Shown: piece after piece, positions 17,125 to 60,382 of the stretch
Layout: each line of letters starts with the position of its first letter
Numbering within the stretch: position 1 is the first letter of the stretch
Source of the DNA: Candidatus Woesearchaeota archaeon
GTDB taxonomy: Archaea > Nanobdellota > Nanobdellia > SCGC-AAA011-G17 > PNOQ01
Length of the DNA stretch: 64,000 nt
Assembly: GCA_964603065.1 (NCBI GenBank)
Contig: CAZRTL010000005.1
Coordinates: 4,700 to 68,699, forward strand
Direction: 5' to 3'
The notes under the pieces: generated by a model
The model's database searches: none
Told to the model about the DNA's origin: nothing
What the model saw: the letters and a program-made list of their open reading frames with translations, nothing else
Position numbers and translations under genes: made by a program

Positions 17125-18708
17125 ATGGAAACTCCATTTCTATCACCCGAACCAACAGTAAAATTACTCCATGCGCTTTCTTATAATCCCCAAAGTAATA
17201 CTCGTGCGGCTGCAAAAACTTGTTATTCACCCAAATTACTCACGGAAGAAGGATTTCAAAAAAGATTAGAAAATGCAAATGAGCAGGAAAGAATAATTCT
17301 ACTTGAAGATATGGACAGATTAATCAACGATTTATATGATTCTGGCCACCATACAACTCTCGAACATAATGTTTTCCAATTTGCATTAACTCAGACTTCA
17401 AGGGCAGCAATTCATTCATTTTTACATTCTCACCCATTTTACAACTCGGAACAACAAAGCCAAAGGTTTGCTCCAATAGACACAGAATCTTTTACAATCC
17501 CAAATATGTCTGAAAAAAACTTAGGAATATACCAAGGGACTTTAGATCTACAAATAGAAACATTTGAAAGATTACAAGATATTTTATTTTCTGGGGCAAA
17601 AGATGCATATCAAAAAATCTTCAAAAAGAGAGATCCAGAAAAACATAAAAAAGATATTGCAAAAAAGGCCCAAGAGATAGCAAGATATGTTCTTCCCATA
17701 GCAATGCATTCAAAATTGCATCACACAATAAACGAAATGACTCTCTTAAGAATGCATAGATTATCTCAACAACCAGATTTCCCACTAGAACAAAAACTAA
17801 TAGTCGAAGGAATGATGTCTGCATTAGAAGAAAACCAAATAGAACTAGGATCTATAGTGGAAGATTCGATAAATGAAACGGATATGCTAGAATATTCTCT
17901 AAGGGAATTACATAGGGGCCAAGTTTCAACAGAAGAATTTTTCAGAGAATTTGATAATTCCTTAAATGGAAGAAGATCTATTCTAGATGGCCATTATACA
18001 AATTCAGAATCCCTTTTAGCAAATACTGTAAGAGGAATAGTAGGAATTCCAACAAATGAACTGTCTGATGAAAAAGCAATAGCTTTGGTCTTAGATTCAA
18101 ATAATAATTCTTACCTATCAGAAAAAATGAATTTAAACTACCATTCTAAGATAATGAAAGCCTTACTCACAATTAATTATACTTTCAAAAAGAAATTAAG
18201 TCACACAGCAGACTCACAAAGCCAAAGACATAGAACGATGCCCGGAGCATACCCCATTTTAGGCCTAAACATAGGGGAAGAACCTGATGTAGTCATTCCT
18301 TCCCTAATAGAATCGAACCAAGAAGCTCTTGACTTATTTATGGAAACAAATCAAGAAACATGGAAAAATATTCAAAAACTAACAGAAAACGGAGTTCCAA
18401 CAGAACAAGTACTTTATTTATTACCAAATGCAAAAGCAATAAGAAAATGGGAATCTGGTTCATTAGTGGGGCTATTACATAAACAAAACAAAAGATTATG
18501 TTATAATTCACAAGAAGAAATTTGGAGAATCGCTCAAGATGAAGCCAACGCAATAAAAAAAGTACATCCAGAAATCGGAAAATATTTCGGAGCACCATGC
18601 GATTTAAGGTCTGTTGGAAATGTAAAACCTTATTGCTCAGAAGGACCAAGATTTTGTGGAGTACCGGTATGGAAAATACCTGAAGAAGAAAGAGAAAGAG
18701 TGATATAA
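17125..18708 (+). CDS. ThyX (Thy1)-homologous protein, 527 aa, divergent motifs
   Basis: GHHTTLEHNVFQF...SRAAIHSFLHSHPFYNSEQQSQRF aligns to the ThyX HETPFEH...RQWFRHRIASYNELSGRY region; a second SQSQRHR stretch follows later. Confidence 0.5.
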   Translation: METPFLSPEPTVKLLHALSYNPQSNTRAAAKTCYSPKLLTEEGFQKRLENANEQERIILLEDMDRLINDLYDSGHHTTLEHNVFQFALTQTSRAAIHSFLHSHPFYNSEQQSQRFAPIDTESFTIPNMSEKNLGIYQGTLDLQIETFERLQDILFSGAKDAYQKIFKKRDPEKHKKDIAKKAQEIARYVLPIAMHSKLHHTINEMTLLRMHRLSQQPDFPLEQKLIVEGMMSALEENQIELGSIVEDSINETDMLEYSLRELHRGQVSTEEFFREFDNSLNGRRSILDGHYTNSESLLANTVRGIVGIPTNELSDEKAIALVLDSNNNSYLSEKMNLNYHSKIMKALLTINYTFKKKLSHTADSQSQRHRTMPGAYPILGLNIGEEPDVVIPSLIESNQEALDLFMETNQETWKNIQKLTENGVPTEQVLYLLPNAKAIRKWESGSLVGLLHKQNKRLCYNSQEEIWRIAQDEANAIKKVHPEIGKYFGAPCDLRSVGNVKPYCSEGPRFCGVPVWKIPEEERERVI

Positions 18709-37229: not shown

Positions 37230-38084
37230 ATGGAAAAACCCGATATATACTTTGTGATAACACCAAATTGCAATTATTCTTGTAAACATTGTTATATAAC
37301 TGCAGGTCCAAAAAGAAAGTCCGAAACAATTTCCGAAAAAGATTTTAGACAATCGGTAAGACACTTACCTAAAATCGCTCTAAATTTTGGTATGTCTGGA
37401 GGAGAAATTTTTACTATCAAAGATACATTATATAGTTTTTTAGATTATTTAAATTTTGAAAATCGGAGAAGAGAACGAAAGGGGCAAGGCCAGATAGATA
37501 TATGGCTTCAAACAAATGGTTTCTGGGGAACTAACGAAGATCGAACAAATAAGATCTTGGAAGAATTAGCTTCTTTTAATGTTATGGATTTAAACTTTGC
37601 TGCCGACGATAAATATCACCGAGATCAAGGTGCAAATAAAAAAAAGATAGAGAAATTAATAAATATAGCAAAAGAAAGTAGACTTTTCGATGAGATATCT
37701 TTCATAGGAACAGAAAGGAGAGAACATATAGTTCCAATGGGTAGAGCAAAAGAAATGAATCTTAGATTATCTGAAATAAGAGCAAATCCCGAATTTGTTT
37801 GCAACGAGGCTCTAGATAAATATGATTTATCAATAATGTACAATGGAGATGTGAGAATATGTTGTATGCTACAACTACCTTCCATGGGAAATATCATTAA
37901 AGAACCTTTAGTGGATATAGTTAGAAGAGCAAAAAAAGATCCCTTATTTTCATTAATGAACAGAGAAGGAATAGAAGGGCTTCTAAAAAGGGACGGAATG
38001 AAAAAGAAAGATATTAGAGAATTGGTGGATAAACAAGGTACTTGTGGAGCTTGCTTTAAAGTTTATAGAAAAGAGATTGAATGA
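37230..38084 (+). CDS. radical SAM protein with a Cys-rich C-terminal (SPASM/twitch-like) region
   Basis: CNYSCKHC (Cx3Cx2C) plus C-terminal VCNEA...CCML...CGAC. Confidence 0.75.
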   Translation: MEKPDIYFVITPNCNYSCKHCYITAGPKRKSETISEKDFRQSVRHLPKIALNFGMSGGEIFTIKDTLYSFLDYLNFENRRRERKGQGQIDIWLQTNGFWGTNEDRTNKILEELASFNVMDLNFAADDKYHRDQGANKKKIEKLINIAKESRLFDEISFIGTERREHIVPMGRAKEMNLRLSEIRANPEFVCNEALDKYDLSIMYNGDVRICCMLQLPSMGNIIKEPLVDIVRRAKKDPLFSLMNREGIEGLLKRDGMKKKDIRELVDKQGTCGACFKVYRKEIE

Positions 38085-38155
38085 GCCTGGCCGGATTCGA
38101 ACCGGCGACCTCTGCCTTGTAAGGGCAACGCTCCACCAGGCTAAGCTACAGGCTC
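38082..38155 (-). tRNA. tRNA-Val (anticodon TAC)
   Basis: Cloverleaf folded by hand: acceptor GAGCCUG/CAGGCUC; D arm GCUU/GAGC; anticodon stem UUGCC/GGCAG with loop CUUACAA; T arm GCCGG-UUCGAAU-CCGGC; discriminator A; no encoded CCA. Confidence 0.85.
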
Positions 38156-38225
38156 ATAGAAAAAAGACTTAATTTTAATTTTAAAAACCTTTCTATTTCA
38201 AAATTAAAAAGAAAAAATATGGAGA

Positions 38226-40226
38226 TTACTCTTCTCCGCCTTCAGACTCAGCTTCTCCTTCTCCTTCAGATTCGGCTTCACCTTCACCCTCAGATTCAGC
38301 TTCGCCTTCCCCTTCAGACTCGCCCTCACCACTACTATCATCTTCATAGTAGCATACACAGTGGTCGTCTATACAATCGGTTCCTGAAGATCCTGGACAC
38401 TCGTCCATACACCCATCTTGACATTCACTCCAAGTATCATCATCTCCCTCACTCCAATCATCCCAGTCATCCTGCCATTCATCTGGTCCATCCTGCTGTT
38501 CCTCATACTGGCCAAAGTCTATACATCTCAAATCGATTGGGCACTGATGTCCTTCTCCTGAGTCCCCCATTATTGGTTCATCTCCAGCATGTTGACCATA
38601 GAGATCCCTGCATCCCTGTTTTTTAACTTCCCAATCCTGTTCAGTCATACATGGCCCCACATAATCACCATCAGATACACCGTGGTACCCCCCAACTTGA
38701 GATCCAGCATTGTCATAACAATCCAACCTTTCCATAGGGTCTTCTATTTCTCTACAATTAAAATCAAATCTTGGTCCGCCCATTTTTGGGTCCTTATCTC
38801 TGCCTCTTCTCAAAAATTCTTCACAATCTCTAAAATCATGAATTTGATTTGCTTGACATTCTGAAGGTCTATTTCCTATACCCCACATGAAATCCTTACA
38901 TTCTTCGTCATCAGTTATTCCCCTCTCAATACATTCTGGAGGGGCATGTAGCTCATACATTATTTTATCACATATCTCTCTACCTTCCATCTCAGTCCTT
39001 GGATTCGCTGCTAAAAGAGCTTCCTTACACTCCTCTGGAGCATGTGTAGTAATCATAATTTTACTACAATCTTCAGGAGTAGTAGCTCCTGCTTCCACAC
39101 ATTCAGGAGGCATATGTAAATCAAATTTCTTATGTTGTATATCTCCTTCTAAAAATCTCATAACTTCTTCTAAATGGGGTGGCAACTCTGGCATATCCAA
39201 ACTATCAAGTTTTTCACATGCCTTCTCATCACCCTCAATATCACAAGCGGTTGCTAGTGGGGCAGCTCTAGAACATGCATTTGCAAAACTGGAATAAGGT
39301 ATTTCATCACACCTACACTCTTGTCCAGAAGTTTCAAAACACTGTCCCATTATTTCAGCAAATTTCTTTGCTTCTTTCTTCTGCTCTTCAGTCAAATCAT
39401 CAAACATTTCCTTGTGCCACCTTGGTCCCTCATCATCAACCCTACAATTTTGATAAAACAGTTCAGGATCTAAATCAGATAGCTCCCTACATAACTCATT
39501 AATTTTAGAAGCAATTTCAGCAGCAGTAGCAATAGAATGCTCCCTATCAATAATATCATGAACAAACTCATCCCTTTCACCAGGAGGAACTTTATCTTGT
39601 ATGTCCCTCATAGCATTTCTTATAGCAGCTGAACTCCTTAATGCCTCTTCTCTTCTCTCAGGACCCACCTCTTTCTCGAATTCTTCGGCAGTTTCAATAT
39701 AAATCATTAAAGCTTTTTTTGCAGACTCAATATCTCCTGCTTCAACCATTGCTTTAATTTCGGCAATTTTTTCTTCTCTAACTTCTATATCATCTCCGAA
39801 CCGATCAAAAAACTTATCAAAAACATATAAAGCACTATCTGGAGTCGTTCCAGCATCAACTTCTAATTCAGAATCTTCATAACCTTCAAATATATAATCC
39901 TCTTTTTCTTTAACAACACATTCACCATCTTCATATCCACAATCAAATTCTCTAGTTGGCGGCAAACACTCGGCCACAACTACAAAATCATACGGAGCAC
40001 ACGCATCGCCACACGGCAAACAACTCAATTCATCTATTTGATCTCCATATTGTTCTTTACATTCCTGAATACAAGGCCTTCTATCTGCTTCATCAGTAAA
40101 ATCTGCCTTACAGCCACCTATACATTTATCCAATTCATTAATACTTTCACGAGCACTTGCGGATTCAAAAGAAAAAATACTAATTAACAAAATACTCACC
40201 AATAGAATAATATACCTCTTTTCCAT
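38226..40226 (-). CDS. large secreted Cys-rich protein with a C-terminal acidic (SEGEGEAE)n tail
   Basis: Signal peptide, more than 50 Cys, and a terminal GEGESEGEGEAESEGEGEAESEGEGEAESEGGEE tail. Confidence 0.55.
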   Translation of the reverse strand: MEKRYIILLVSILLISIFSFESASARESINELDKCIGGCKADFTDEADRRPCIQECKEQYGDQIDELSCLPCGDACAPYDFVVVAECLPPTREFDCGYEDGECVVKEKEDYIFEGYEDSELEVDAGTTPDSALYVFDKFFDRFGDDIEVREEKIAEIKAMVEAGDIESAKKALMIYIETAEEFEKEVGPERREEALRSSAAIRNAMRDIQDKVPPGERDEFVHDIIDREHSIATAAEIASKINELCRELSDLDPELFYQNCRVDDEGPRWHKEMFDDLTEEQKKEAKKFAEIMGQCFETSGQECRCDEIPYSSFANACSRAAPLATACDIEGDEKACEKLDSLDMPELPPHLEEVMRFLEGDIQHKKFDLHMPPECVEAGATTPEDCSKIMITTHAPEECKEALLAANPRTEMEGREICDKIMYELHAPPECIERGITDDEECKDFMWGIGNRPSECQANQIHDFRDCEEFLRRGRDKDPKMGGPRFDFNCREIEDPMERLDCYDNAGSQVGGYHGVSDGDYVGPCMTEQDWEVKKQGCRDLYGQHAGDEPIMGDSGEGHQCPIDLRCIDFGQYEEQQDGPDEWQDDWDDWSEGDDDTWSECQDGCMDECPGSSGTDCIDDHCVCYYEDDSSGEGESEGEGEAESEGEGEAESEGEGEAESEGGEE
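38241..38330. repeat. about 3.75 tandem copies of a 24-nt unit encoding the acidic tail
   Basis: ttcagactcagcttctccttctcc / ttcagattcggcttcaccttcacc / ctcagattcagcttcgccttcccc... Confidence 0.7.
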
Positions 40227-42384: not shown

Positions 42385-44148
42385 ATGAATCAATTACCCC
42401 CAACCCAACCCAATATGCCTTCTCCTGAAGAACAGGAAAAAATAAAAGCTAAAATTGAGAAGATAAAGGCAAAGGTTGAAAAATTTAAAGATAAAATTCT
42501 AAAAACTCATAAAAAAGAAGTTATGGGTGTGGCTTTACTACCTCCGAAAAAAGAGGAGCCTGACAAAATTAATGTTCTAATCGTAGTTGACGATTCAAAA
42601 GCAGAATTTAGACCAGATTTCAAACTAAGAGATAAAACATTCACAGAATTATCAAAAGTAGCAAAAGAGCAGGATAAGGATTTAATTCCAGAAGTTTATA
42701 CAGTATCCGAAATAAAAGAATCATTATACGATTCAAAATATGAAGTTTTGCAATTAGTAGCAATGTCTGCTATCCTATATGATCCAGCAGATTTCTTAGG
42801 AGCATTAAAAATTTCAGAAGTGCATAAAAGCATGGTTCTACAAAAATTCGAAAAATATATTGTTAGTTATGTAGCAGCCGGTTCATTATTTAGAGGAGAA
42901 AAATCCAATGATATTGACGTATATGTTGTTATTGATGATACTGATGTTAGAAGGATGACTCGTGCTGAACTTAGAGATAAATTAAGATCATTAATAATTT
43001 CACAAGGTTTTGAAGCCGCGGCAATGACTGGCGTCAAAAAAGAATTTCACGTTCAAATTTACATCTTAACTGATTTCTGGGAATCTATCAAAGATGCGCA
43101 CCCAGTTATATTCACATTATTAAGAGATGGAGTTCCAATTTATGATAGGGGAGTTTTCACACCATGGAGACTATTACTAAATATGGGACGTATCAGGCCC
43201 TCTCCAGAAGCAATCGATATGCAAATGGACACAGGTGAAAAATTACTAGAAAGAGCAAGAAAAAAATTACTTATGATTGCCGGTGAAGATTTATATTATG
43301 GAATTTTAAATCCTTCTCAAGCAGCACTTATGCTTTACGGAATTTCTCCACCAACACCAAAAGAAACTGTTAAGTTACTAGAAGAAGTATTCGTGAAGAA
43401 AGAAAAAATCTTAGAACAAAGATATGTTAATATTCTAGAAAAAATCAGAGTATTCTTTAAAGGAATTGAACATGGGAAAGTAAAAGATATTTCTGGAAAA
43501 GAAATTGATGAGTTATTAAAAGATTGTGACGATTATTTAAAAAGAATAAAGAAATTATTTACACAAATAGAAAAGAAGGCAGAAAAAGAAACCTTCACAG
43601 AATTATATAACACTTTAATAAAAACTGTAGGGGATGCACTAGCTGCAGAGAGTATTAAATATACAAAACTAGATTTAGGGTTTAAAAAATTCTGCCAAAA
43701 AGAAAACCTACCGGAATCTCTGGTTAACAACTTAAAATCATTCATGAAAGCACACCAAGAGTTTAAAGCTAAAAAATTAATAAAAGCAGAATCTGATAAA
43801 ATCAAGAGAGAAATCAGAACTTTCTTAAGGATTGTAGTTGAACACGGACAAAGAAAGAAATTCTTGGGTGTAGAAAGAGCAAAAATAAGATTTAAAGTAA
43901 AAGATAAAATGGGAGAAGTTCTCTTACTAAAAGATCAGGCATTTATTGTTAAAGATTTAAAACAAAAGGACAAAATAGAGAAAGTAGATTTAGTTAAAGG
44001 TAGATTGAAAAAAGCAGAAAAATCAACTAGGGATGAATATGATAAAACACTAGTCGATGTAGAAGTTCCGCAGTCCATTACTCTAACTCCAGAATTATTT
44101 AGCGATTTAGAAAAACTAGTTGGTAAAGATATCGAAATATTACTTTAA
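42385..44148 (+). CDS. tandem nucleotidyltransferase-domain protein (degenerate NTase + NTase + helical C-domain)
   Basis: GSLFRGEKSNDIDVYVVIDD (GS..DxD); an upstream degenerate copy; the C-terminal half is paralogous to 49624..50502. Confidence 0.6.
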   Translation: MNQLPPTQPNMPSPEEQEKIKAKIEKIKAKVEKFKDKILKTHKKEVMGVALLPPKKEEPDKINVLIVVDDSKAEFRPDFKLRDKTFTELSKVAKEQDKDLIPEVYTVSEIKESLYDSKYEVLQLVAMSAILYDPADFLGALKISEVHKSMVLQKFEKYIVSYVAAGSLFRGEKSNDIDVYVVIDDTDVRRMTRAELRDKLRSLIISQGFEAAAMTGVKKEFHVQIYILTDFWESIKDAHPVIFTLLRDGVPIYDRGVFTPWRLLLNMGRIRPSPEAIDMQMDTGEKLLERARKKLLMIAGEDLYYGILNPSQAALMLYGISPPTPKETVKLLEEVFVKKEKILEQRYVNILEKIRVFFKGIEHGKVKDISGKEIDELLKDCDDYLKRIKKLFTQIEKKAEKETFTELYNTLIKTVGDALAAESIKYTKLDLGFKKFCQKENLPESLVNNLKSFMKAHQEFKAKKLIKAESDKIKREIRTFLRIVVEHGQRKKFLGVERAKIRFKVKDKMGEVLLLKDQAFIVKDLKQKDKIEKVDLVKGRLKKAEKSTRDEYDKTLVDVEVPQSITLTPELFSDLEKLVGKDIEILL

Positions 44149-48916: not shown

Positions 48917-49621
48917 ATGACAGAAGAAAGAACAGAACCCGGATTTAAGGATTATCTAGGTAGCTATAATGGACTAAATCAATTAGGTGAAGAAACTCTG
49001 GCAAAACCATATGATGCAAGTTTAAGAAGCACCACAGCAAAGGTTTTAGGTCTTGATGAAAAAACATTTTGGAATGTAACTCCAGACAGTATTCATAGAG
49101 AAATCTCAATAGCAAAAGAACAAACAGGATCTAAATTAGTCGAACAAATTGATGCTAACTTAGAAGAGATATTAAATACTGAAACTGCAGGATTAGATAT
49201 GGGAAAAACGAGTAATCTTTTATTATATACTGCTCAAAATTCAAAACCGGTAGTGGCAGATCCTGAAAATCCAACATCTACTGAAATTTTCCATTCTCAG
49301 CTTTATAATGCAGCTAAAATTGCGGAAGCTAGAAAAGAAAATCCAGAAGAAGCTAAAGAAATGATGAAAGAATCTCTAAGATATATAAATGGAGAAATGA
49401 TTGATAGATTAACTATAAATCAATCACAAGTCTTAGATACATTATACGGTAGTTTTGTTGAAACAGCAACAGAACAATATCTACAAACATTTATGAAAAA
49501 AGGAGCAAAAACTCCTGAATTTAAAATGGGAGTAGTTAAAGGTTACCTAGCTAAAACAATGCAAGGATCTGATGCTGAAACCAAAATAAAACTAGCTAAT
49601 GGATTAGTTTCAATTAATTAA
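48917..49621 (+). CDS. hypothetical protein
   Basis: ORF only. Confidence 0.35.
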   Translation: MTEERTEPGFKDYLGSYNGLNQLGEETLAKPYDASLRSTTAKVLGLDEKTFWNVTPDSIHREISIAKEQTGSKLVEQIDANLEEILNTETAGLDMGKTSNLLLYTAQNSKPVVADPENPTSTEIFHSQLYNAAKIAEARKENPEEAKEMMKESLRYINGEMIDRLTINQSQVLDTLYGSFVETATEQYLQTFMKKGAKTPEFKMGVVKGYLAKTMQGSDAETKIKLANGLVSIN

Positions 49622-49623
49622 AA

Positions 49624-50502
49624 TTAATTTTCTTTTTTTTCTACCATTATTATTTTTCTATTCTCAATTAATTTAGAAGTTATTGATCTCATAACTTTCT
49701 CAAATTCTTCAGCTCTCTTAAGATATTTATCCACTTCTTTACCTTCTATATACTTAACATTGCCATGCATAACATCATGAGCCAACTCGTACATTTCCTT
49801 GAACCAATCCACATATTTCCCATTCAAAAATTTTCTTTTTACAAACATGCTTTCTAACAACTCGGCAACATGTTCGGGGCTAGGAGGAACATGACCAGCA
49901 GCCATCAAGGCAGCATGTGAGCTATCTACCATAGCCCAATAAACATTCTCTATAGAAGCAACAATATCAATTTTAGCCTTAGCCAAGTGCATAGGACTTC
50001 TTCTTAAAGTAAGGAAAATAGACTCTGCAGTAGGTCTTATTTTACCTTTAGCTAATAAAACTTTCAAAGGGTTGAAAAACCCACCATGATCAATCAGAGT
50101 TTCCCCATATCTCAACATATTAATAACAGCTGGCTCTCCAGCTCTAACTTCTTCCATAAAAGTGCTCAGAGTAATAGTAGTAAGATGTAACTCTTTCTTG
50201 TATCTCTGTTCACCTAACAATTCACTTAATTCTTGTCGATACCAGGCAATTAATTCCTGATCCCAATCAATAACACAATCATCTATAATAATAACAATAT
50301 CAATATCACTCCCTTTCTTGGCCTCATTTTTAACAACGCTTCCAAACAAAACTATGGATTTTATAACTTCCTTAAATTTTTTATAGGATTTAATAGCAAA
50401 ATCATAAGCAATATCTCTATCATTCTCAAATTTCTTCTCAGAAGTTTTTTTCTTCACAGGAGCTTTTTTCTTTTTAGTTGCTTTTTTCTTTTTTGCGGGC
50501 AA
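49624..50502 (-). CDS. nucleotidyltransferase-domain protein with a poly-Lys N-terminus
   Basis: LFGSVVKNEAKKGSDIDIVIIIDD motif and MPAKKKKATKKKKAPVKKK tail; paralog of the C-terminal half of 42385..44148. Confidence 0.6.
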   Translation of the reverse strand: MPAKKKKATKKKKAPVKKKTSEKKFENDRDIAYDFAIKSYKKFKEVIKSIVLFGSVVKNEAKKGSDIDIVIIIDDCVIDWDQELIAWYRQELSELLGEQRYKKELHLTTITLSTFMEEVRAGEPAVINMLRYGETLIDHGGFFNPLKVLLAKGKIRPTAESIFLTLRRSPMHLAKAKIDIVASIENVYWAMVDSSHAALMAAGHVPPSPEHVAELLESMFVKRKFLNGKYVDWFKEMYELAHDVMHGNVKYIEGKEVDKYLKRAEEFEKVMRSITSKLIENRKIIMVEKKEN

Positions 50503-50545
50503 ACTACCACCTCTTAATTTATTTTAATTTTCCCTATTTAAAAAT

Positions 50546-52465
50546 TTATTGATTGGCAAACCTTCCTTTATCTCCGCCTGCCTGCCCGCCCAACTCTTTA
50601 GGTAACATTGAAAATCCTCCACCTTGCATCTTAAAGTTCTGTTCGGGCAACATATCTCCAAATCCAAATAAGTATGATGAATAAACATCTCTAACATCTG
50701 TCCAACTTGGTCCTTTATCATATGAATAAAAGGGACTATTCAATCCTTCAACAGCATAAGAAACGGGGCTCATTTTGAATTGATTTATCATACCCCCTGC
50801 TTCAACAACTGCCGGACCTTCCCATTTCTTTCCTTGAGCTTTCTCAATGGCTTCAACTTGTTCCTTTATTGGAACATTTCCCATTCCTGGAGCCAAATGT
50901 GTATCCCCATATCCAAAATTATCTGTAAGGTGTAGATGTTTAACATGTTTACCTATTTTCTTAGCTTCCTCAACAATCTCTTTTTCACTATAACCATATT
51001 TTCTCAACTGATTGATATGGCCAACATCCCAAGTAACACCCACATTTTTTTCGGCTACTTTTTCGGCTGATCCCTTACTCATTCCCTCCTTAACTAATTT
51101 TTCACTAAATTGTTTTTTAGAACTTTCAATCATTTTCTTCAAAGATTCCGCTCTAGATAAAGTCCACTCGGGAAAAACGTTCTCAACAGCAATCAAAGGC
51201 ATCTTATCCCCAAATTTTTTATAAGCATGTAAGGCAACATTAGCAAATGTTTCGGCGGCTTTTTCTTGAGCAACATCATCTACCGGCCTATATATTTCTG
51301 GAGTTTGTAAATCAATCAAAGAGTTAGAAATTATTTCAGGAGTAATTCTTTGACCAACTTGATTTTGAATTCTATTCTCCATCTCTTGTTGCATTTCCAT
51401 TATACGAGGATTCATTTCCTCTCTACTCATTTTTCCTTTATTATCTTTTATCCATTTATTTATTTTTCCTTCTTTGCCTAAATAAGCGATTTCTATTTTA
51501 TTTTGGTTTTCAAAATCTGTAGTTAATTTTTTCAACTCAACCTCTTTTTCCTCATAATCATAAATTTCTTTTTCAGTTTTTCCTTCTTTATTAAATCCTT
51601 TTTTATAAGTATGATAAACATCGTTCAAATGTGAAAATAAATAAGAATTATACTGCCTCTTTTGCTCCTCATATCTATCCTCAACACTTTTCAAAGCTTT
51701 AATCTCATCCATTTCTCCCTGACTTATTCTCCCGCCAGTTTGTCTATATTTTTGTTCCAAAAGCATCAATTTCTTTCCCTCATCACTATTAAATTGCCAA
51801 TTTCTTTGTAAGGCCTCAGTTTCCTCTTTTTGTTTCATCAAACTCAAGAACTCCATTTTCTTTTGTTCCCAAGAACTATCATTCATAGTTTTTAATCTCC
51901 TATCAACATCTAATATTTCTTTCCCAGTTAACCACTCAACTTCTTCATGTATTACGGGGGTTATTTGGCCTGTTTGAGTATTAACAACACTCATCATCTC
52001 TCTTGTTTCTCCACCACCTTCCTCTTTCTTACCCCAGATATTAGCAGCCACTCCTCCGCCCGAAGCGTGAAAATTAACGGGGATATTTCCATCTGGGTCT
52101 AATTGATGTGCCCTCTCAATAACATCTTTAAATTCTTGTTCTGCCAATTTCCTTTGATGCTCATTCCAACCCTGCTGTGAAAATCCTGCTGGATCAGTCT
52201 GAACAGGAGCGTGAACGGAAAGCTTACTATCAGTTAACTTAGACAATCTTCTCATCTCATCCATATGTTGAGCAGGAATAGCACTAAAAACATCCTGACT
52301 TAAAGAGCCAATCTCTACATTCTTAACCCCTTCATTTAGTCTCATTCCTAGTTCTCCTAATTGATTAGCCGTCTGAGGATTAGTACTCCAACTCAAATTA
52401 CCAAAATGCATAGAAAAATCATTTTCCATTCCACCCATCCTTTTATCTCGAAATCTATCTACCAT
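50546..52465 (-). CDS. xylose-isomerase/Endonuclease-IV-like TIM-barrel protein with a ~250-aa charged insertion
   Basis: NFHASGG, IAVENV, WDVGH and HLHLTDN..G.GDTHLAPGMGN resemble the Nfo motifs NFHPGS, VIENTAG, IDTCH and MHLNDAK...DRHH.LGEGNIG. Confidence 0.45.
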   Translation of the reverse strand: MVDRFRDKRMGGMENDFSMHFGNLSWSTNPQTANQLGELGMRLNEGVKNVEIGSLSQDVFSAIPAQHMDEMRRLSKLTDSKLSVHAPVQTDPAGFSQQGWNEHQRKLAEQEFKDVIERAHQLDPDGNIPVNFHASGGGVAANIWGKKEEGGGETREMMSVVNTQTGQITPVIHEEVEWLTGKEILDVDRRLKTMNDSSWEQKKMEFLSLMKQKEETEALQRNWQFNSDEGKKLMLLEQKYRQTGGRISQGEMDEIKALKSVEDRYEEQKRQYNSYLFSHLNDVYHTYKKGFNKEGKTEKEIYDYEEKEVELKKLTTDFENQNKIEIAYLGKEGKINKWIKDNKGKMSREEMNPRIMEMQQEMENRIQNQVGQRITPEIISNSLIDLQTPEIYRPVDDVAQEKAAETFANVALHAYKKFGDKMPLIAVENVFPEWTLSRAESLKKMIESSKKQFSEKLVKEGMSKGSAEKVAEKNVGVTWDVGHINQLRKYGYSEKEIVEEAKKIGKHVKHLHLTDNFGYGDTHLAPGMGNVPIKEQVEAIEKAQGKKWEGPAVVEAGGMINQFKMSPVSYAVEGLNSPFYSYDKGPSWTDVRDVYSSYLFGFGDMLPEQNFKMQGGGFSMLPKELGGQAGGDKGRFANQ

Positions 52466-53907
52466 GTCATCATCCTATGTGCTTTCTTAAAAACATCATA
52501 TAAAGTAAAACATCTGGACTTAGCAACACTTTGAGCCTCACTAAGAACTTTCTTCTCTTCAAAACTTCCAGCCTTTTTTTCAGAGCCTGGAACAAAACTA
52601 CCTAAAATATTCCCAAATTCACCAAGCCCCTTAAATCCTTTTTTCAAAGATACAAAAAAATCTTCTTCTTTCTCTCCTTCTTTCTTCTTTTCTGGATAAA
52701 TATACTCATCTAAATCGGCTTGTAACTTTTCCAAACTGAATTCTGTCAATTCTTCTACCATTGCCATATTCTCATAAACTTCTTGTGCATAAATATCATC
52801 TAAATCGGCTTGATCAAAAACATATGCTCTAAAAAAAACATCTATTGTTCCCATATGAGCAAAGTGTTGGCTCTGGCCTTGCCTTACAACCTGCGGAGCA
52901 GTTCTGTACTGGAACTCTGCCTCTAAACACATATAATAATCCTTACTAAATTTAAATTTTTTAAAAGATGGGTGAACACTATCCGGACTAATTTTCTTCT
53001 TTGCCATTAACTTAAGTTCCATTTGCATACTATCAAAAGTAGTAACCATGTCTGGACTAGGCAACCCCGCCTTTGTCTTAAATTCCTTCATACCTAATTT
53101 CTGGGCAGCTCTTAAATAAGGCCTCGCCCAAGTAGTATATAATTTCAAACTATCAACTTGTGCTCTCAAATAGTTTTTCTCTATATCATGTCTCTTCCTT
53201 AATTCTCTCTCACTAGCTTCTTTCCAAGCATTATACTCTCCAAATTTTTTCTTTATGATCGTTTTAACTCTTTTATTTAAATCCATTCTATCTACATCTT
53301 TTGAAGAAGTCGCTTGCATAAAAGCATCTCTTAACGTAACAAAATTTAAGTCCCCTCTAGTTAACTGGTTTATACTTCCTAATCCAGTTTTGACATCAAC
53401 TTGATCCATCCATATTCCTCTTAAAGAATACTCTCCCTCAAGCTTAGTATTTTTATCTTTAGATTTAATAGAATCATAAGCTTGTAATCGCATATCAAAT
53501 TCCTTCAAATCATAAATTAAATTAATAATTGTTCTCAAAACGGCATTAACAGTTTCTAATATTTTCATAGCTCTGTCTTGCATAACACTAGCTTTACTTC
53601 CCAATTCCCCAAAAAATCCTCCCCCAGAACTGGCCTCAAACTCCTCCGTAACTTTATCAACTTCAAACCCTAATCCAGAAGGATCATCAGCTCTTAAAAA
53701 ATCTAAAGTCCAGAAATAAACAGGCTCCAAAGTATTAGAAAATGTGTCATAAATAATATGGTATTCAACAGGGTTTCCACTATCAAATTTAACTATTCCC
53801 TTTTTTTTAATCAACTCAATTAATTTTTCCCTTTTCTCTTTTTTTTCCTTAAAAGAAATATCTTCATTTTTAAGCTCCGCTCTAAGAGAATTTATGTTAA
53901 CCACCAT
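52459..53907 (-). CDS. hypothetical 482-aa protein, translationally coupled to the TIM-barrel gene
   Basis: 7-nt overlap with the downstream gene; no recognised motifs. Confidence 0.45.
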   Translation of the reverse strand: MVVNINSLRAELKNEDISFKEKKEKREKLIELIKKKGIVKFDSGNPVEYHIIYDTFSNTLEPVYFWTLDFLRADDPSGLGFEVDKVTEEFEASSGGGFFGELGSKASVMQDRAMKILETVNAVLRTIINLIYDLKEFDMRLQAYDSIKSKDKNTKLEGEYSLRGIWMDQVDVKTGLGSINQLTRGDLNFVTLRDAFMQATSSKDVDRMDLNKRVKTIIKKKFGEYNAWKEASERELRKRHDIEKNYLRAQVDSLKLYTTWARPYLRAAQKLGMKEFKTKAGLPSPDMVTTFDSMQMELKLMAKKKISPDSVHPSFKKFKFSKDYYMCLEAEFQYRTAPQVVRQGQSQHFAHMGTIDVFFRAYVFDQADLDDIYAQEVYENMAMVEELTEFSLEKLQADLDEYIYPEKKKEGEKEEDFFVSLKKGFKGLGEFGNILGSFVPGSEKKAGSFEEKKVLSEAQSVAKSRCFTLYDVFKKAHRMMTW

Positions 53908-53984
53908 ACTAAAATTTTAGTTTGGAACTTTTTAAATATTTCTATCAACAAAAGCTTTTTAATATCCTTCAGAATATTTAAACT

Positions 53985-54377
53985 ATGAAAAAATTCTTCA
54001 TTATAGCGGCCATAATAGTAGTTTTAGACCAAATTACAAAAATTCTATTTACTAACAAACATTTTGGTATCATAAATTACACCACAAACACTGGAGCAGC
54101 TTTCTCTTTATTTCAAGGATATACCTTTTTTCTGGCAATAATTTCAATTTTAATAGCAATTTTTATATATTTTCTAGCTAAAAAAAATAAAAATTTGCAA
54201 ATCCCCCTTGCTTTCATATTTGGAGGGGCAGTAGGAAATTTAATAGACAGGTTATTTCTAGGTCATGTAAGAGACTTTATTGATTTGCAAGTTTGGCCAA
54301 TATTTAACATAGCAGATTCTTTCAATGTAATTGGAGTTGTAATAATAGCATATTTAATTTTAAAAGGAAAAACTTAA
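53985..54377 (+). CDS. lspA: lipoprotein signal peptidase (signal peptidase II)
   Basis: Four TM segments, NTGAAFSLF and FNIADSF signature blocks; 130 aa. Confidence 0.8.
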   Translation: MKKFFIIAAIIVVLDQITKILFTNKHFGIINYTTNTGAAFSLFQGYTFFLAIISILIAIFIYFLAKKNKNLQIPLAFIFGGAVGNLIDRLFLGHVRDFIDLQVWPIFNIADSFNVIGVVIIAYLILKGKT

Positions 54378-58149: not shown

Positions 58150-59577
58150 ATGAAAGTAAAAAAGGGGGTAATGACATTTCTCATACTATTAATCTTAACT
58201 AACTCTACATACGCGATAACCGAAATACTATTCTCGATTCCTTGCATTCCAAGTAATCCAGACTGGCCAGACTGTTTAAATGATGAAAATTCTTTACCAG
58301 AACCGGGGGAAGAAAAATCTAGTTTCAAACAATGTGATTATCCTGGAGAATGTCTCACACCCGATTCAATTCTTTATCAACCTGGCATGTACTGCAACGA
58401 AAATGGAGTATTAGAAGCGAACTGCCAAACATGTGGCTGTGACGGAAATGGAGTTTGCAACGCACCAACTGGAACCTGTACTTGTACAGATGGTACTCCT
58501 TTAGGAGCGTGTTCAACAAATAAACCAAAATTCTGTAATGGTGGATATCTAGTAAATAATTGTGAATATTGTGGTTGTTCTGAAAATGCTTGTTGCTATG
58601 AAGATTCCGGAATGTGCTCTCCTTACAATCAAGAATGTTATGATGGATGCATAGCAAATTATGTTGAAAATAGCAGAACAATAGGAGAAGAATGTGAATC
58701 GACAGAAGACTGTCCTGAAGGAACAAGGTGTTACGGCTGTCAATGTATAGAAATACACGCAGATACACAGTCTTCTTGTCCAAATTATTGGGGGGAAGTG
58801 GGATTTGAGTATCAAGATGGCATTTACTCTTGCCAATTAATCAATGTAAATAGTGGCTATACAGATCCATTATATGCAGATTATATGGATTATTTAATTG
58901 ACGATGCTTTAGACTGTTGTGAAAACCAAGAAGCAGTATCTGAAGGAAACAAAGATATTTGTGAAGCAATACACGAAGCGTACGATCCTCAAACAATAAG
59001 GGATTGCACAGCTAGATTCATAAATAAACATATCAATGATTGCTTTTACAATCCTGAAAGTGAAGGGTGTTTTTATTTTGGAAATTATTACTATCCTGAA
59101 TTATGTTGTGCAGATCACGAACTATGTGAGTTTGGAGGGGGCACTCCTAACACATGCAGCCCTAATGAATCAACCATAGGTGTGTATAATAACTATGTCC
59201 AATCATTAACTTGCGCCTATAATGATTGTCGATTTACCCCTCAACCAGCGTGGAAAAGTATGATGTTATTACAAACGGGGACATGTCAAGATTACTCTTT
59301 TGTTTTGACCACCCTCAATAGAAGAACTGGATATCATAATTTAGATCAAGGAGATCTAGTACTGTCTACAGATAACAATGTGCACACTTATAATTTTATT
59401 TGGCTTGATGTGTATGGTAAATGGGTAGTTTCGAATTATGGTAAATTTTACCCGAGCGATACTGAAGATTTACATCAGTGTACCACTGATGCCCAGAGAT
59501 GCTATAATGAATATGAAGAATTTTATTGTAGCTCATCATGGAAACAAGATCATCTATCTGGTTGTGAAAATGGATAA
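58150..59577 (+). CDS. secreted Cys-rich protein (about 50 Cys)
   Basis: Signal peptide plus dense CxC/CxxC content. Confidence 0.5.
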   Translation: MKVKKGVMTFLILLILTNSTYAITEILFSIPCIPSNPDWPDCLNDENSLPEPGEEKSSFKQCDYPGECLTPDSILYQPGMYCNENGVLEANCQTCGCDGNGVCNAPTGTCTCTDGTPLGACSTNKPKFCNGGYLVNNCEYCGCSENACCYEDSGMCSPYNQECYDGCIANYVENSRTIGEECESTEDCPEGTRCYGCQCIEIHADTQSSCPNYWGEVGFEYQDGIYSCQLINVNSGYTDPLYADYMDYLIDDALDCCENQEAVSEGNKDICEAIHEAYDPQTIRDCTARFINKHINDCFYNPESEGCFYFGNYYYPELCCADHELCEFGGGTPNTCSPNESTIGVYNNYVQSLTCAYNDCRFTPQPAWKSMMLLQTGTCQDYSFVLTTLNRRTGYHNLDQGDLVLSTDNNVHTYNFIWLDVYGKWVVSNYGKFYPSDTEDLHQCTTDAQRCYNEYEEFYCSSSWKQDHLSGCENG

Positions 59578-60382
59578 AGCAAAATTAACTGGAATACTAA
59601 TACTGTTCATCCTTTCAATAAATTTAAGCTTAGCAAATGTAAATGAAATAATATTAGAAAACAATATGGATGGAAGTTATAATATAGAAGAGAACACAAT
59701 TCACAAATTTACAGTAACCAACACAAAAAATACACTCCAATCAATAAAAATAATAAGACAAATCAATCCAGAAGAAACTCTAGTCTCATACCCTAATGCA
59801 ATTATTAAGTATATGCAACTAGAACACATGGAAATTCCTTACTTAGAATATGATATAGATCTCCAAAAAAACCAAGAGAAACAATTTGAAGTAAAAGTAA
59901 AATATGATTATCTACCTTATAATGGAAAGGTTATTCTTCCAAGTATATTCGTAAAAGATTCTAAAACCGAAAGATTAGTTGGAAAATCTATGTACGAAGT
60001 AATTCAAATAGAGTGTAAAATTGATAATATATGTGACAAAAAAGTCAAAGAAAATAGCCTAAACTGTCCAGAAGACTGCCAATCTGGAGAAGAAGATGGT
60101 ATTTGTGATATGAAAGAAGACGGAAAATGTGATCCAAATTGCTTAACATATCTAGACTCAGATTGTGAAGAGGGGGAAGGAATAATAAAAATACCAGAAA
60201 TTCCAAAAAAAGAAATAATTGAAAAGAAAACAAAATCTAAAATTAAAATTACCCAAGAAGAAATTAATAAAGTAATAGAAAATTTTGAAAAAAATAACTT
60301 TGGAATACAAAAAGAAATAAAAAAATCTCAAGAAACTTTATTAAATAAGATAATAAAATTCTTCAAAGAAACAATGTTATAA
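59570..60382 (+). CDS. secreted protein with a C-terminal Cys/acidic module
   Basis: Start moved to MDKAKLTGILILF (ATGGATAA overlaps the upstream stop); DCQSGEEDGICDMKEDGKCDPNC. Confidence 0.45.
   Translation: MDKAKLTGILILFILSINLSLANVNEIILENNMDGSYNIEENTIHKFTVTNTKNTLQSIKIIRQINPEETLVSYPNAIIKYMQLEHMEIPYLEYDIDLQKNQEKQFEVKVKYDYLPYNGKVILPSIFVKDSKTERLVGKSMYEVIQIECKIDNICDKKVKENSLNCPEDCQSGEEDGICDMKEDGKCDPNCLTYLDSDCEEGEGIIKIPEIPKKEIIEKKTKSKIKITQEEINKVIENFEKNNFGIQKEIKKSQETLLNKIIKFFKETML

What the first reader, a model, noticed from the sequence alone, without database searches (positions are those of the whole stretch)
49624..53907. Uncharacterised three-gene operon: unknown 482-aa protein, Endo IV-like TIM barrel with a 250-aa insertion, and a poly-Lys NTase
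The first two genes overlap by 7 nt, and the NTase follows 44 nt later on the same strand. The 639-aa protein has the Endonuclease IV/xylose-isomerase barrel motifs split by a long charged coiled-coil insertion and ends in a Gly-rich tail. The 482-aa partner has no recognisable motifs. A DNA-backbone-processing barrel, a nucleotidyltransferase with a nucleic-acid-binding tail and an unknown partner make this the best candidate in the window for an undescribed nucleic-acid repair, modification or defence module.
Basis: inference. Interest (0 to 1): 0.65.

Follow-up and report, generated by a model that had tools for sequence, protein, structure and literature searches.

The report
Conserved Nanoarchaeota enzyme pair, function unknown
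The three genes are real, but they are not a defence island: two of them are a vertically inherited pair found across the tiny symbiotic Nanoarchaeota/Woesearchaeota archaea, made of a metal enzyme with an Endonuclease IV-type active site plus a partner protein resembling nothing known, and what they act on is still unknown.

Summary
All three minus-strand ORFs exist as described: A (482 aa), B (639 aa) and C (292 aa). A and B overlap by 7 nt (ATGGTAG).

B is a xylose-isomerase-fold TIM barrel. It carries a confidently folded ~250-aa insertion between β4 and α4. It keeps residues at all nine Endonuclease IV metal-ligand positions, family-wide.

A has no Pfam, NCBIfam, PADLOC, PHROG, PDB or BFVD match. 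It still gives a confident model and has ≥700 homologs.

C is a minimal nucleotidyltransferase with a helical C-domain and a basic tail.

The A→B pairing is nearly universal in Woesearchaeota, Pacearchaeota and Nanobdellales. B lies <1.5 kb downstream in 59 of 65 loci, and also in Nanopusillus and the cultured strain YN1. A small acidic ORF X usually sits between them but is lost in this clade. C follows B in 43 of 56 loci, only in Woese/Pace lineages.

The setting is housekeeping and syntenic: ribosomal proteins, aminoacyl-tRNA synthetases, PEP synthase. There are no viral copies.

Best reading: an undescribed, lineage-wide housekeeping complex built around a multinuclear-metal phosphodiesterase, probably acting on nucleic acid. 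The substrate is inferred, not shown. The defence reading is rejected.

The parts
52459..53907 (-). Gene A: 482-aa orphan-family protein, the constant partner of B
   Evidence: ORF. Homologs: 700, 798 representatives of 50% clusters, and 578 confirmed stretches in species-representative genomes. No Pfam, NCBIfam, PADLOC, PHROG or PDB sequence hit. AF2 pLDDT 79.9. No Foldseek match with E<=0.001 in PDB or BFVD.
53098..53619 (-). A aa 97-270: long basic helical hairpin/bundle arm with a conserved tip (aa ~160-215: WMDQVD, FVTLRDAF, LNxRV)
   Evidence: Secondary structure. Invariant residues. pI 9.6. Covariation supports antiparallel packing of H97-147 against H212-270, with H366-403 as a third helix.
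52462..52500 (-). A C-terminal motif Y-x-V-[FY]-K-K-x-H-x-M-x-T-W; its last codons form the overlapping start of the next ORF
   Evidence: K474, K475, H477, M479 and W482 are invariant. The motif is kept in deep branches. An ATGGTAR junction occurs in 32 of ~60 loci.
52459..52465 (-). 7-nt A stop / B start overlap (ATGGTAG): translational coupling
50546..52465 (-). Gene B: 639-aa xylose-isomerase-fold (AP_endonuc_2) metalloenzyme
   Evidence: Pfam PF01261, 48.3 bits against a cut-off of 31.1. AF2 pLDDT 88.1, pTM 0.84. Foldseek TM 0.61-0.66 to ketose 3-epimerases and Endo IV. Closest solved sequence is MJ1311, PDB 3wqo. 550 homologs.
52043..52423 (-). B barrel N-half (aa 15-141) with invariant H85 (end of beta3) and H133 (end of beta4)
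51284..52042 (-). B insertion (aa 142-394) in the beta4-alpha4 loop: beta-hairpins plus a helical bundle, likely a lid or substrate domain on the catalytic face
   Evidence: pLDDT >90. The insertion is present family-wide, with N195 and W199 conserved. No PDB or Pfam homology.
50681..51283 (-). B barrel C-half (aa 395-595) with E428, D480, H483, H512, D521, H523 and E555
   Evidence: Invariant or near-invariant residues. Eight of the nine align with the E. coli Nfo ligands. The same residues are visible in the YN1 and L087 homologs.
50549..50680 (-). B Gly-rich disordered tail with a conserved LPxELGG...RF motif
   Evidence: pLDDT <50. P622 and G626 are invariant; E624, L625 and G627 are >=97% conserved. 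The motif is kept in Nanobdellales but absent in L087.
49624..50502 (-). Gene C: 292-aa nucleotidyltransferase with a basic N-tail, a minimal NTase core (G54 S55 ... D66 x D68) and a helical HEPN-like C-domain. It belongs to the operon in Woese/Pace lineages only.
   Evidence: C lies within 600 bp of B in 43 of 56 loci.
50507..50513 (-). Shine-Dalgarno-like GAGGTGG upstream of C's TTG start
53908..53984 (.). 77-bp AT-rich divergent intergenic region between A and the lspA-like gene (presumed promoters)
   Evidence: LspA is divergently adjacent in 45 of 55 loci. Promoter function is inferred only.

Best explanation
A and B form a vertically inherited, lineage-wide housekeeping enzyme complex of Nanoarchaeota/Nanobdellota (Woesearchaeales, Pacearchaeales, Nanobdellales). 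It is not a mobile or defence module.

B is the catalytic subunit. It is a xylose-isomerase-fold TIM barrel whose active site keeps the full H-H-E-D-H-H-D-H-E ligand set of the trinuclear Endonuclease IV/UvdE-type centre. The most likely chemistry is therefore metal-dependent phosphodiester or phosphomonoester hydrolysis. A 250-aa folded domain inserted in the beta4-alpha4 loop sits over the catalytic face as a lid or substrate-binding module.

A is translationally coupled to B. It is a non-enzymatic-looking protein with a split beta domain and a long, basic three-helix arm with a conserved tip. I infer that it binds B, and in most lineages the acidic adaptor X, and positions a polymeric substrate. 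The most probable substrate is damaged or end-blocked nucleic acid.

C is a KNTase/MNT-like nucleotidyltransferase with a Lys-rich tail. It is co-transcribed in Woese/Pace lineages and may act on the same substrate's ends, but it is not part of the conserved core.

Shown: gene structure, the fold of B, ligand conservation, orphan status of A, A-B co-conservation, housekeeping context.
Inferred: the A-B physical complex, hydrolytic chemistry, the nucleic-acid substrate, and C's involvement.

The confidence of 0.35 refers to the whole mechanistic chain. The sub-claim 'housekeeping A-B enzyme pair, not defence' I hold at about 0.85.
For: Co-conservation:
- B lies on the same strand within 1.5 kb of A in 59 of 65 evaluable loci, and in the locus in 63 of 65.
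- The pair is also adjacent in Nanopusillus, in the YN1 complete genome and in a deep branch, where the flanking genes differ.
- An overlapping ATGGTAR stop/start is conserved.

Vertical, housekeeping character:
- Divergence of A, B and C correlates among them and with PEP synthase and LspA (rho 0.57-0.85).
- Neighbours are L35Ae, L10e, TyrRS, GluRS, ThyX and PEP synthase.
- A has no copies in IMG/VR, and A and B have no PADLOC or PHROG hits.

Active site:
- H85, H133, E428, D480, H483, H512 and E555 are invariant. D521 and H523 are >=90% conserved across 108 sequences of 33% mean identity.
- Eight of the nine align with Nfo H69, H109, E145, D179, H182, H216, D229 and H231 once the insertion is removed.
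- The ninth, E555, ends beta8 in the model.
- The same residues are present in Nanobdellales homologs.

Other support:
- The closest solved sequence, MJ1311, was listed as an EndoIV homolog in PMC2770678.
- The N-half weakly resembles the phosphodiesterase CbiR.
- A's helical arm is basic (pI 9.6), the A family has a median pI of 8.4, and C has a median pI of 9.2 with a K/R tail.
- Some A homologs carry a zinc ribbon.
Against: - No direct evidence for any substrate.
- B is not detectably related to Nfo at sequence level: hhalign E=0.075 only after editing out the insertion, no NCBIfam nfo hit, and no Nfo PDB chain hit.
- The Nfo residues that flip and intercalate DNA (Y72, L73) are not conserved in the alignment.
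- Foldseek ranks ketose 3-epimerases above Endo IV.
- B and its insertion are acidic (pI 5.8 and 5.5).
- By my recollection, the same nine positions are also used by multinuclear-iron oxidases (MNIO/DUF692), so the ligand pattern alone does not prove hydrolysis.
- Canonical Endo IV works as a monomer without a partner.
- The B-C adjacency (77%) is no stronger than the LspA-A adjacency (82%), so it may be plain synteny.
It was checked only by the self-consistency of the published ligand numbering.
Confidence: 0.35

Rival explanations
1. B is a small-molecule enzyme: a sugar or sugar-phosphate isomerase, epimerase or dehydratase, or a CbiR-like small-molecule or lipid-headgroup phosphodiesterase. 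It would serve salvage or envelope metabolism, with A as a regulatory or scaffolding subunit.
For: - Foldseek top hits are D-psicose and D-tagatose 3-epimerases (E 3.5e-5 to 1e-3, TM 0.62-0.66 on the target).
- JGI and NCBI name homologs 'sugar phosphate isomerase/epimerase'.
- Weak NCBIfam hits to fructoselysine 3-epimerase and to CbiR.
- B is acidic.
- In some genomes B is followed by PIG-L and glycosyltransferase genes, and A is usually preceded by lspA.
Against: - To my knowledge, ketose epimerases need only the E-D-H-E subset. B additionally keeps H85, H133, D521 and H523 invariant or nearly so.
- NCBIfam scores are far below the equivalog cut-offs (27 bits against 305 and 105).
- These lineages have minimal sugar metabolism (bioRxiv 10.64898/2026.05.13.725050), yet the pair is retained everywhere.
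- None of the three proteins has a membrane segment.
Confidence: 0.2
2. B is an MNIO-like multinuclear-iron enzyme that modifies a protein or peptide. A would be the obligatory partner protein (analogous to MbnC or TglI), and the variable ORF X would be the substrate or a scaffold.
For: - TglHI chains appear among the Foldseek hits (8hci_B, 8hi7_B).
- MNIOs always work with an adjacent partner protein (PMC12452194).
- X has conserved termini and a hypervariable middle.
- The nine ligand positions are shared, by my recollection of the MbnB and TglH structures.
Against: - No Pfam DUF692 hit at E<=1, whereas PF01261 is significant.
- B has H483 where, as I recall, MNIOs typically have Asn.
- X is absent in the window clade, with no homolog elsewhere in the window, and absent in Nanobdellales.
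- RiPP clusters are patchy, whereas this pair is universal in the lineage.
- To my knowledge many hosts are anaerobes, while MNIO chemistry needs O2.
Confidence: 0.08
3. The trio is an anti-phage or anti-plasmid defence, or toxin-antitoxin, module, with C as an MntA/CBASS-like NTase.
For: C's NTase core weakly matches PADLOC candidate systems PDC-S09 and PDC-M05A, MntA and HalB. HEPN-like C-domain.
Against: - All of C's hits cover only the generic 30-60-residue NTase motif and fall below family cut-offs.
- A and B have no defence-family hits.
- The pair is conserved across the lineage in a syntenic housekeeping block and diverges with its neighbours.
- No viral copies of A.
- No compositional anomaly: GC 0.33-0.34 against ~0.31 for the window.
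Confidence: 0.03
4. A-B is mainly a structural or assembly machine, such as a cytoskeletal, chaperone-like or cell-biology scaffold. The barrel's catalysis would be secondary or regulatory.
For: - A's architecture is a beta domain split by a long helical arm with a conserved tip. It resembles oligomerising adaptor proteins; the best, non-significant, Foldseek hits are EmrA and MacA.
- A is more conserved than B (43% against 33% mean column identity).
- Both proteins carry conserved disordered tail motifs.
Against: - Strict conservation of nine metal ligands argues for a working enzyme.
- Fold matches for A are all non-significant (E>=0.012, TM<=0.24).
- No signal peptides or membrane anchors.
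Confidence: 0.1

Closest known systems
Endonuclease IV (E. coli Nfo) and UvdE, the trinuclear-metal DNA phosphodiesterases of the xylose-isomerase fold
   Same: Same TIM-barrel fold. The same nine ligand positions fall on beta3, beta4, beta5, beta6, beta7 (plus the D-x-H loop) and beta8. Local motifs are similar: NFH, (V/I)EN, DxxH, HLxD...DxH.
   Different: No significant sequence relationship. A 250-aa insertion sits on the catalytic face. The DNA-flipping residues are not conserved. B has an obligate partner gene. It is 639 aa against ~285 aa.
MJ1311 (PDB 3wqo), an uncharacterised Methanocaldococcus TIM-barrel protein listed as an EndoIV homolog in PMC2770678
   Same: Best solved-sequence match (E=6.6e-10 with the single sequence, 4.8e-11 with the profile). 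It shares HAP, DxGH and H-x-H-D-N-x-G-x-x-D-x-H-L-x-x-G-x-G-N motifs.
   Different: MJ1311 is 293 aa with no insertion. No A-like partner was examined. It has no assigned function, so it does not transfer one.
MNIO (DUF692) enzymes with partner proteins (MbnB/MbnC, TglH/TglI)
   Same: Xylose-isomerase-fold barrel with a multinuclear metal site, encoded next to an obligatory non-catalytic partner. Structural hits to TglHI.
   Different: No DUF692 sequence signal. A is unrelated to the known partners. The distribution is lineage-wide and housekeeping rather than biosynthetic-cluster-like.
CbiR, the cobamide-remodelling phosphodiesterase (AP_endonuc_2 superfamily)
   Same: B's N-terminal half gives a weak NCBIfam hit to it (E=3e-6). 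CbiR is a precedent for non-DNA phosphodiester hydrolysis in this fold.
   Different: The score of 26.9 bits is far below the 105-bit cut-off. CbiR has no insertion or partner.
Minimal nucleotidyltransferases with HEPN-type helical domains (MntA/HepT, KNTase/ANT enzymes), for gene C
   Same: hGS-x(9-12)-DxD NTase core followed by a helical domain. The best hits are MntA, ANT(9) and streptomycin 3''-adenylyltransferase.
   Different: All scores are below family cut-offs. The domains are fused, with no separate toxin. R167/R168...H172 lies outside the canonical HEPN motif position. The basic N-tail and a 50-88% conserved core define a distinct family.
Periplasmic adaptor proteins (EmrA, MacA), for the architecture of A only
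   Same: A beta domain interrupted by a long alpha-helical hairpin with a conserved tip. These are the top Foldseek hits.
   Different: E>=0.012, TM<=0.24, 7-10% identity. A is cytoplasmic with no signal peptide. This is resemblance of layout, not homology.

Membership tests
Xylose isomerase-like TIM barrel / AP_endonuc_2 (Pfam PF01261) | Significant match to the family HMM above its gathering score | tested here: met
   48.3 bits against a cut-off of 31.1, E=1.4e-12, aa 468-556. Nearly all listed homologs carry PF01261.
Xylose isomerase-like TIM barrel / AP_endonuc_2 (Pfam PF01261) | (beta/alpha)8 barrel fold | tested here: met
   AF2 pLDDT 88 with eight strands in order. Foldseek probability 1.00 and TM 0.61-0.66 on the target to family structures.
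Endonuclease IV (Nfo) family | Nine metal ligands (H69 H109 E145 D179 H182 H216 D229 H231 E261 in E. coli) | tested here: met
   B's H85, H133, E428, D480, H483, H512, D521 and H523 align to the first eight. E555 is assigned by its position at the end of beta8. All are invariant or >=90% conserved. The alignment itself is weak (E=0.075).
Endonuclease IV (Nfo) family | Sequence membership: match to Nfo family models or Nfo chains | tested here: not met
   No nfo model among NCBIfam hits at E<=1. No Nfo chain in the PDB sequence searches. hhalign against full-length Nfo gave nothing.
Endonuclease IV (Nfo) family | DNA-intercalating, AP-site-flipping residues (Tyr72/Leu73, Arg37) | tested here: not met
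   In the edited alignment Nfo H-D-S-Y-L faces B H-A-P-V-Q. B instead has a conserved HAPxxDPAGF...GW loop. The weak alignment limits certainty.
Endonuclease IV (Nfo) family | AP-endonuclease or 3'-diesterase activity on DNA | not testable with these tools
   Needs biochemistry.
Ketose 3-epimerase / sugar-phosphate isomerase families | Match to curated equivalog models | tested here: not met
   Fructoselysine 3-epimerase 27.4 bits against 305; IolO 12.7 bits against 300. The structural similarity is fold-level only.
MNIO (DUF692) | Match to the DUF692 family HMM | tested here: not met
   Not among Pfam hits at E<=1.
MNIO (DUF692) | Adjacent obligatory partner protein | tested here: inconclusive
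   A is an adjacent, co-conserved partner, but it shows no homology to anything, including the known MNIO partners.
Known anti-phage defence systems (PADLOC-DB) | Component proteins match defence-system models | tested here: not met
   A and B have zero hits. C shows only generic NTase-motif hits.
Known anti-phage defence systems (PADLOC-DB) | Patchy, island-like distribution or mobility | tested here: not met
   Found in >=578 species-representative genome stretches, in a conserved syntenic position. Divergence tracks housekeeping genes. Absent from IMG/VR.
MntA/HepT type VII TA (gene C) | MntA equivalog score; separate HEPN toxin with Rx4-6H | tested here: not met
   30.5 bits against a cut-off of 60. 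HEPN Pfam 16.3 bits against 22. The domains are fused in one conserved protein.
Pol-beta-fold nucleotidyltransferase superfamily (gene C) | hG[GS]...DxD catalytic motif and NTP_transf_2 HMM match | tested here: met
   PF01909 43.8 bits against 21. G54 is invariant and S55, D66 and D68 are >=90% conserved across orthologs.

The most novel reading that the evidence does not exclude
A-(X)-B is a previously unrecognised, phylum-defining molecular machine of Nanobdellota. A new-fold coiled-coil protein (A) would deliver a polymeric substrate to a lidded, Endo IV-type trinuclear phosphodiesterase (B). In these ultra-reduced symbionts this would replace a missing canonical nucleic-acid repair or processing pathway, or a host-molecule scavenging pathway.
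Probability: 0.25. Interest if true: 0.75.

Novelty: new variant of a known kind. Interest (0 to 1): 0.55.

Why it matters
Nanobdellota (Woesearchaeota, Pacearchaeota, Nanoarchaeota) are abundant archaea with tiny genomes. [quoted passage not shown]

A gene pair kept across such reduced genomes, evolving as slowly as PEP synthase, is likely important for these cells. One member has no detectable relatives in Pfam, PDB or viral structure sets.

The pair can be tested directly:
- The catalytic subunit has an obvious, mutable metal site.
- A cultured strain, YN1 (YN1_2290 and the next gene), carries it.

Identifying the substrate could expose a lineage-specific repair, RNA-processing or scavenging function, and would give the first function for a large orphan protein family.

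Tried and rejected
Searches on A that found nothing significant:
- Pfam, NCBIfam, PADLOC and PHROGs.
- PDB sequence searches with the single sequence and two profiles.
- Per-member Pfam scan of 73 diverse homologs: no recurrent family.
- Foldseek against PDB and BFVD.
- Pfam scan of N-terminally extended homologs.
- hhalign of A against B: no shared domain.

B's insertion alone, as profile A3: no PDB or Pfam homology.

hhalign of full-length B against Nfo failed. It worked only weakly after the insertion was removed.

Ideas considered and dropped:
- A 'GGQ' release-factor-like motif in B's tail. Q is only 75% conserved and is absent in YN1.
- PIP-box readings of the tails. The patterns do not fit.
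- The JGI label 'ribosomal protein L24E' on Nanopusillus A homologs. It is not supported by Pfam.
- The idea that the A and B tail motifs co-vary.

Other checks:
- A homolog of X elsewhere in the window: none.
- Canonical nfo in the window or related loci: none convincing.
- Literature searches for these proteins in DPANN or Woesearchaeota: nothing.
- The first mean-field DCA run was dominated by gap artefacts. The gap-filtered rerun gave usable helix-packing signal.

Full report
**Observation**

The three minus-strand ORFs exist exactly as reported:
- A: 52459..53907, 482 aa.
- B: 50546..52465, 639 aa.
- C: 49624..50502, 292 aa.

A's last codons read ACA TGG TAG and contain B's ATG, giving a 7-nt overlap. 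The B-C spacer is 43 nt. C starts at TTG, preceded by GAGGTGG. The window is AT-rich (GC ~0.31). It encodes archaeal L35Ae, L10e, TyrRS, GluRS, ThyX, PEP synthase and one tRNA-Val. Homolog names place it in Woesearchaeota/Nanoarchaeota, that is DPANN.

**Gene B**

Pfam AP_endonuc_2 matches only aa 468-556, above the cut-off. The N-half gives a weak CbiR-like hit. The best solved-sequence relative is the uncharacterised MJ1311, PDB 3wqo. PMC2770678 lists MJ1311 as an EndoIV homolog.

The AF2 model, built on 108 sequences, is confident (pLDDT 88.1, pTM 0.84). Eight barrel strands appear in order. Residues ~142-394 are inserted between beta4 and the following helix. The insertion is five short strands plus a helical bundle with pLDDT >90. 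It is a folded domain on the catalytic face, not merely a charged coiled coil. It has no detectable homology.

Foldseek confirms the fold. The TM-score on the target is 0.62-0.66 to ketose 3-epimerases and 0.61 to S. aureus Endo IV.

Across 108 homologs of 33% mean identity, the invariant residues include H85, H133, E428, D480, H483, H512 and E555. D521 and H523 are >=90% conserved. I removed the insertion and aligned the profile to E. coli Nfo. Eight ligands then paired exactly: H69, H109, E145, D179, H182, H216, D229 and H231. The alignment is statistically weak (E=0.075). It misplaces the last strand, where E555 ends beta8 in the model. The same residues are visible in homologs from the cultured nanoarchaeon YN1 and from a deep-branching lineage.

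B is nevertheless not an Nfo family member:
- No nfo model or Nfo chain matches it.
- The Tyr72/Leu73 positions are not conserved.

The Gly-rich tail is disordered but carries a near-invariant LPxELGG motif.

**Gene A**

A has no hit in Pfam, NCBIfam, PADLOC, PHROGs or PDB sequences, either as a single sequence or as two profiles. A per-member scan of 73 diverse homologs gave no recurrent family. The family is nonetheless large:
- 700 hits in the word-indexed search.
- 798 representatives of 50%-identity clusters.

AF2 gives pLDDT 79.9. The order of elements is:
- short N-terminal helices;
- two strands;
- a 50-residue helix;
- a conserved, less confident 'tip' region (aa ~160-215);
- a 59-residue return helix;
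- three long strands;
- a 38-residue helix;
- a disordered linker;
- a C-terminal helix ending in the conserved motif YxV[FY]KKxHxMxTW.

My gap-filtered mean-field DCA (Neff ~185) independently shows several packings:
- H97-147 packs antiparallel against H212-270.
- H366-403 joins as a third helix.
- N-terminal elements contact the C-terminal strands.

**Gene C**

C has an NTP_transf_2/Pol-beta NTase core (G54, S55, D66, D68) and a helical C-domain with a sub-threshold HEPN match. Its N-tail is basic in most orthologs but not conserved in sequence. Only the generic NTase motif matches solved or curated families such as MntA, ANT and HalB, always below cut-off. C is the most conserved of the three proteins (50-88% identity). 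It has a 587-aa paralog at 42385..44148.

**Co-conservation**

I counted gene order in 65 related loci with enough downstream sequence:
- B lies on the same strand within 1.5 kb of A in 59.
- B lies somewhere in the locus in 63.
- C follows B within 600 bp in 43 of 56.
- An lspA-like gene is divergently adjacent to A in 45 of 55.

Most lineages carry a small, acidic, fast-evolving ORF X between A and B. It is 160-355 aa, with a conserved N-terminal helix and a C-terminal K-Y-E/K motif. The window and its three closest relatives lack X, and no X homolog exists elsewhere in the window. The overlapping ATGGTAR junction after A is conserved in 32 of ~60 loci. It serves X, or B where X is lost.

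The A-B pair is also adjacent in Candidatus Nanopusillus and in the complete genome of strain YN1. There it lies next to SecY, TruD and a class Ib aminoacyl-tRNA synthetase gene (Pfam tRNA-synt_1b), without C or lspA. So A-(X)-B is the core unit, and C is a lineage-restricted operon member.

**Defence or housekeeping**

The evidence points to housekeeping:
- A and B have no PADLOC or PHROG hits.
- A is absent from IMG/VR viral contigs.
- The region has no compositional anomaly.
- Per-residue bit scores of A, B and C correlate with each other and with PEP synthase and LspA (Spearman 0.57-0.85). This is what vertical inheritance predicts.

I therefore reject the defence or toxin-antitoxin reading.

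**Mechanism**

Shown:
- a translationally coupled, co-inherited pair;
- a catalytic barrel with a complete Endo IV/UvdE-type ligand set and a folded lid;
- an orphan, basic, coiled-coil partner.

Inferred:
- B is a multinuclear-metal phosphoesterase.
- A, with X where present, binds B and presents a polymeric substrate, most likely nucleic acid with damaged or blocked ends.
- C may modify the same ends.

I put about 0.35 on this mechanistic chain, and much more on the statement 'housekeeping A-B enzyme complex, not defence'. The rivals, in order, are:
1. a small-molecule or sugar enzyme;
2. a mainly structural assembly;
3. an MNIO-like protein modifier;
4. a defence module.

**Literature**

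I found nothing on these proteins. A 2026 preprint on complete Nanobdellota genomes notes uncharacterised conserved orthologs among phylum markers. N. equitans has an abundant 293-aa EndoIV-like protein, NEQ368 (PMC3149612). That protein is not the long form described here.

**Verdict**

This is an undescribed, lineage-wide enzyme pair. B is a new variant of a known fold, and A is an orphan family. Interest is moderate to high for archaeal biology, and it depends on identifying the substrate.

Noticed in passing
window 53985..54377 (+): A homolog of bacterial lipoprotein signal peptidase II in an archaeon (Pfam Peptidase_A8, E=1e-29). It is divergently adjacent to gene A in 45 of 55 related loci. 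LspA is not, to my knowledge, a usual archaeal gene.
   Followed up: partly
window 42385..44148 (+): A 587-aa paralog of NTase C (~30% identity to C orthologs). The first NTase-like module looks degenerate and the second has an intact GS...DxD. It has no curated-family hit and is conserved in close relatives.
   Followed up: partly
related loci L001, L003, L007-L018, L087 (between A and B); absent at window 52459..52465: A small acidic, hypervariable ORF X (160-355 aa) with a conserved N-terminal helix and a C-terminal K-Y-E/K motif sits between A and B in most lineages. It has been cleanly lost in the window clade, where B now uses the overlapping ATGGTAG start.
   Followed up: yes
P0061 (A homolog) aa ~379-402; P0412 and others: Some A homologs carry a CxxC...CxxC zinc ribbon in the otherwise disordered linker. 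JGI labels several Nanopusillus homologs 'ribosomal protein L24E', which Pfam does not support.
   Followed up: partly
window 17125..18708 (+): A 527-aa ORF with two ThyX (Thy1) stretches, which from memory is about twice the usual ThyX length. It is possibly a tandem-duplicated or fused flavin-dependent thymidylate synthase.
   Followed up: no
window 38001..40000; ORF 38226..40226 (-): Local GC of 0.40 against ~0.30 background, over a 666-aa ORF with only a weak DUF5667 hit, next to tRNA-Val (38081..38156).
   Followed up: no
window 58150..59577 (+) and 59438..60382 (+): A 475-aa Cys-rich protein with a hydrophobic N-terminus and no Pfam hit, followed by a 314-aa ORF with a Cys/Asp/Glu-rich segment. 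Both look like secreted or surface proteins.
   Followed up: no
window 48917..49621 (+): A 234-aa ORF converging on gene C, with only 2 nt between the two ORF ends. It has no family hit and is poorly conserved: a tblastn match in only one related locus (L004, 48% identity).
   Followed up: partly
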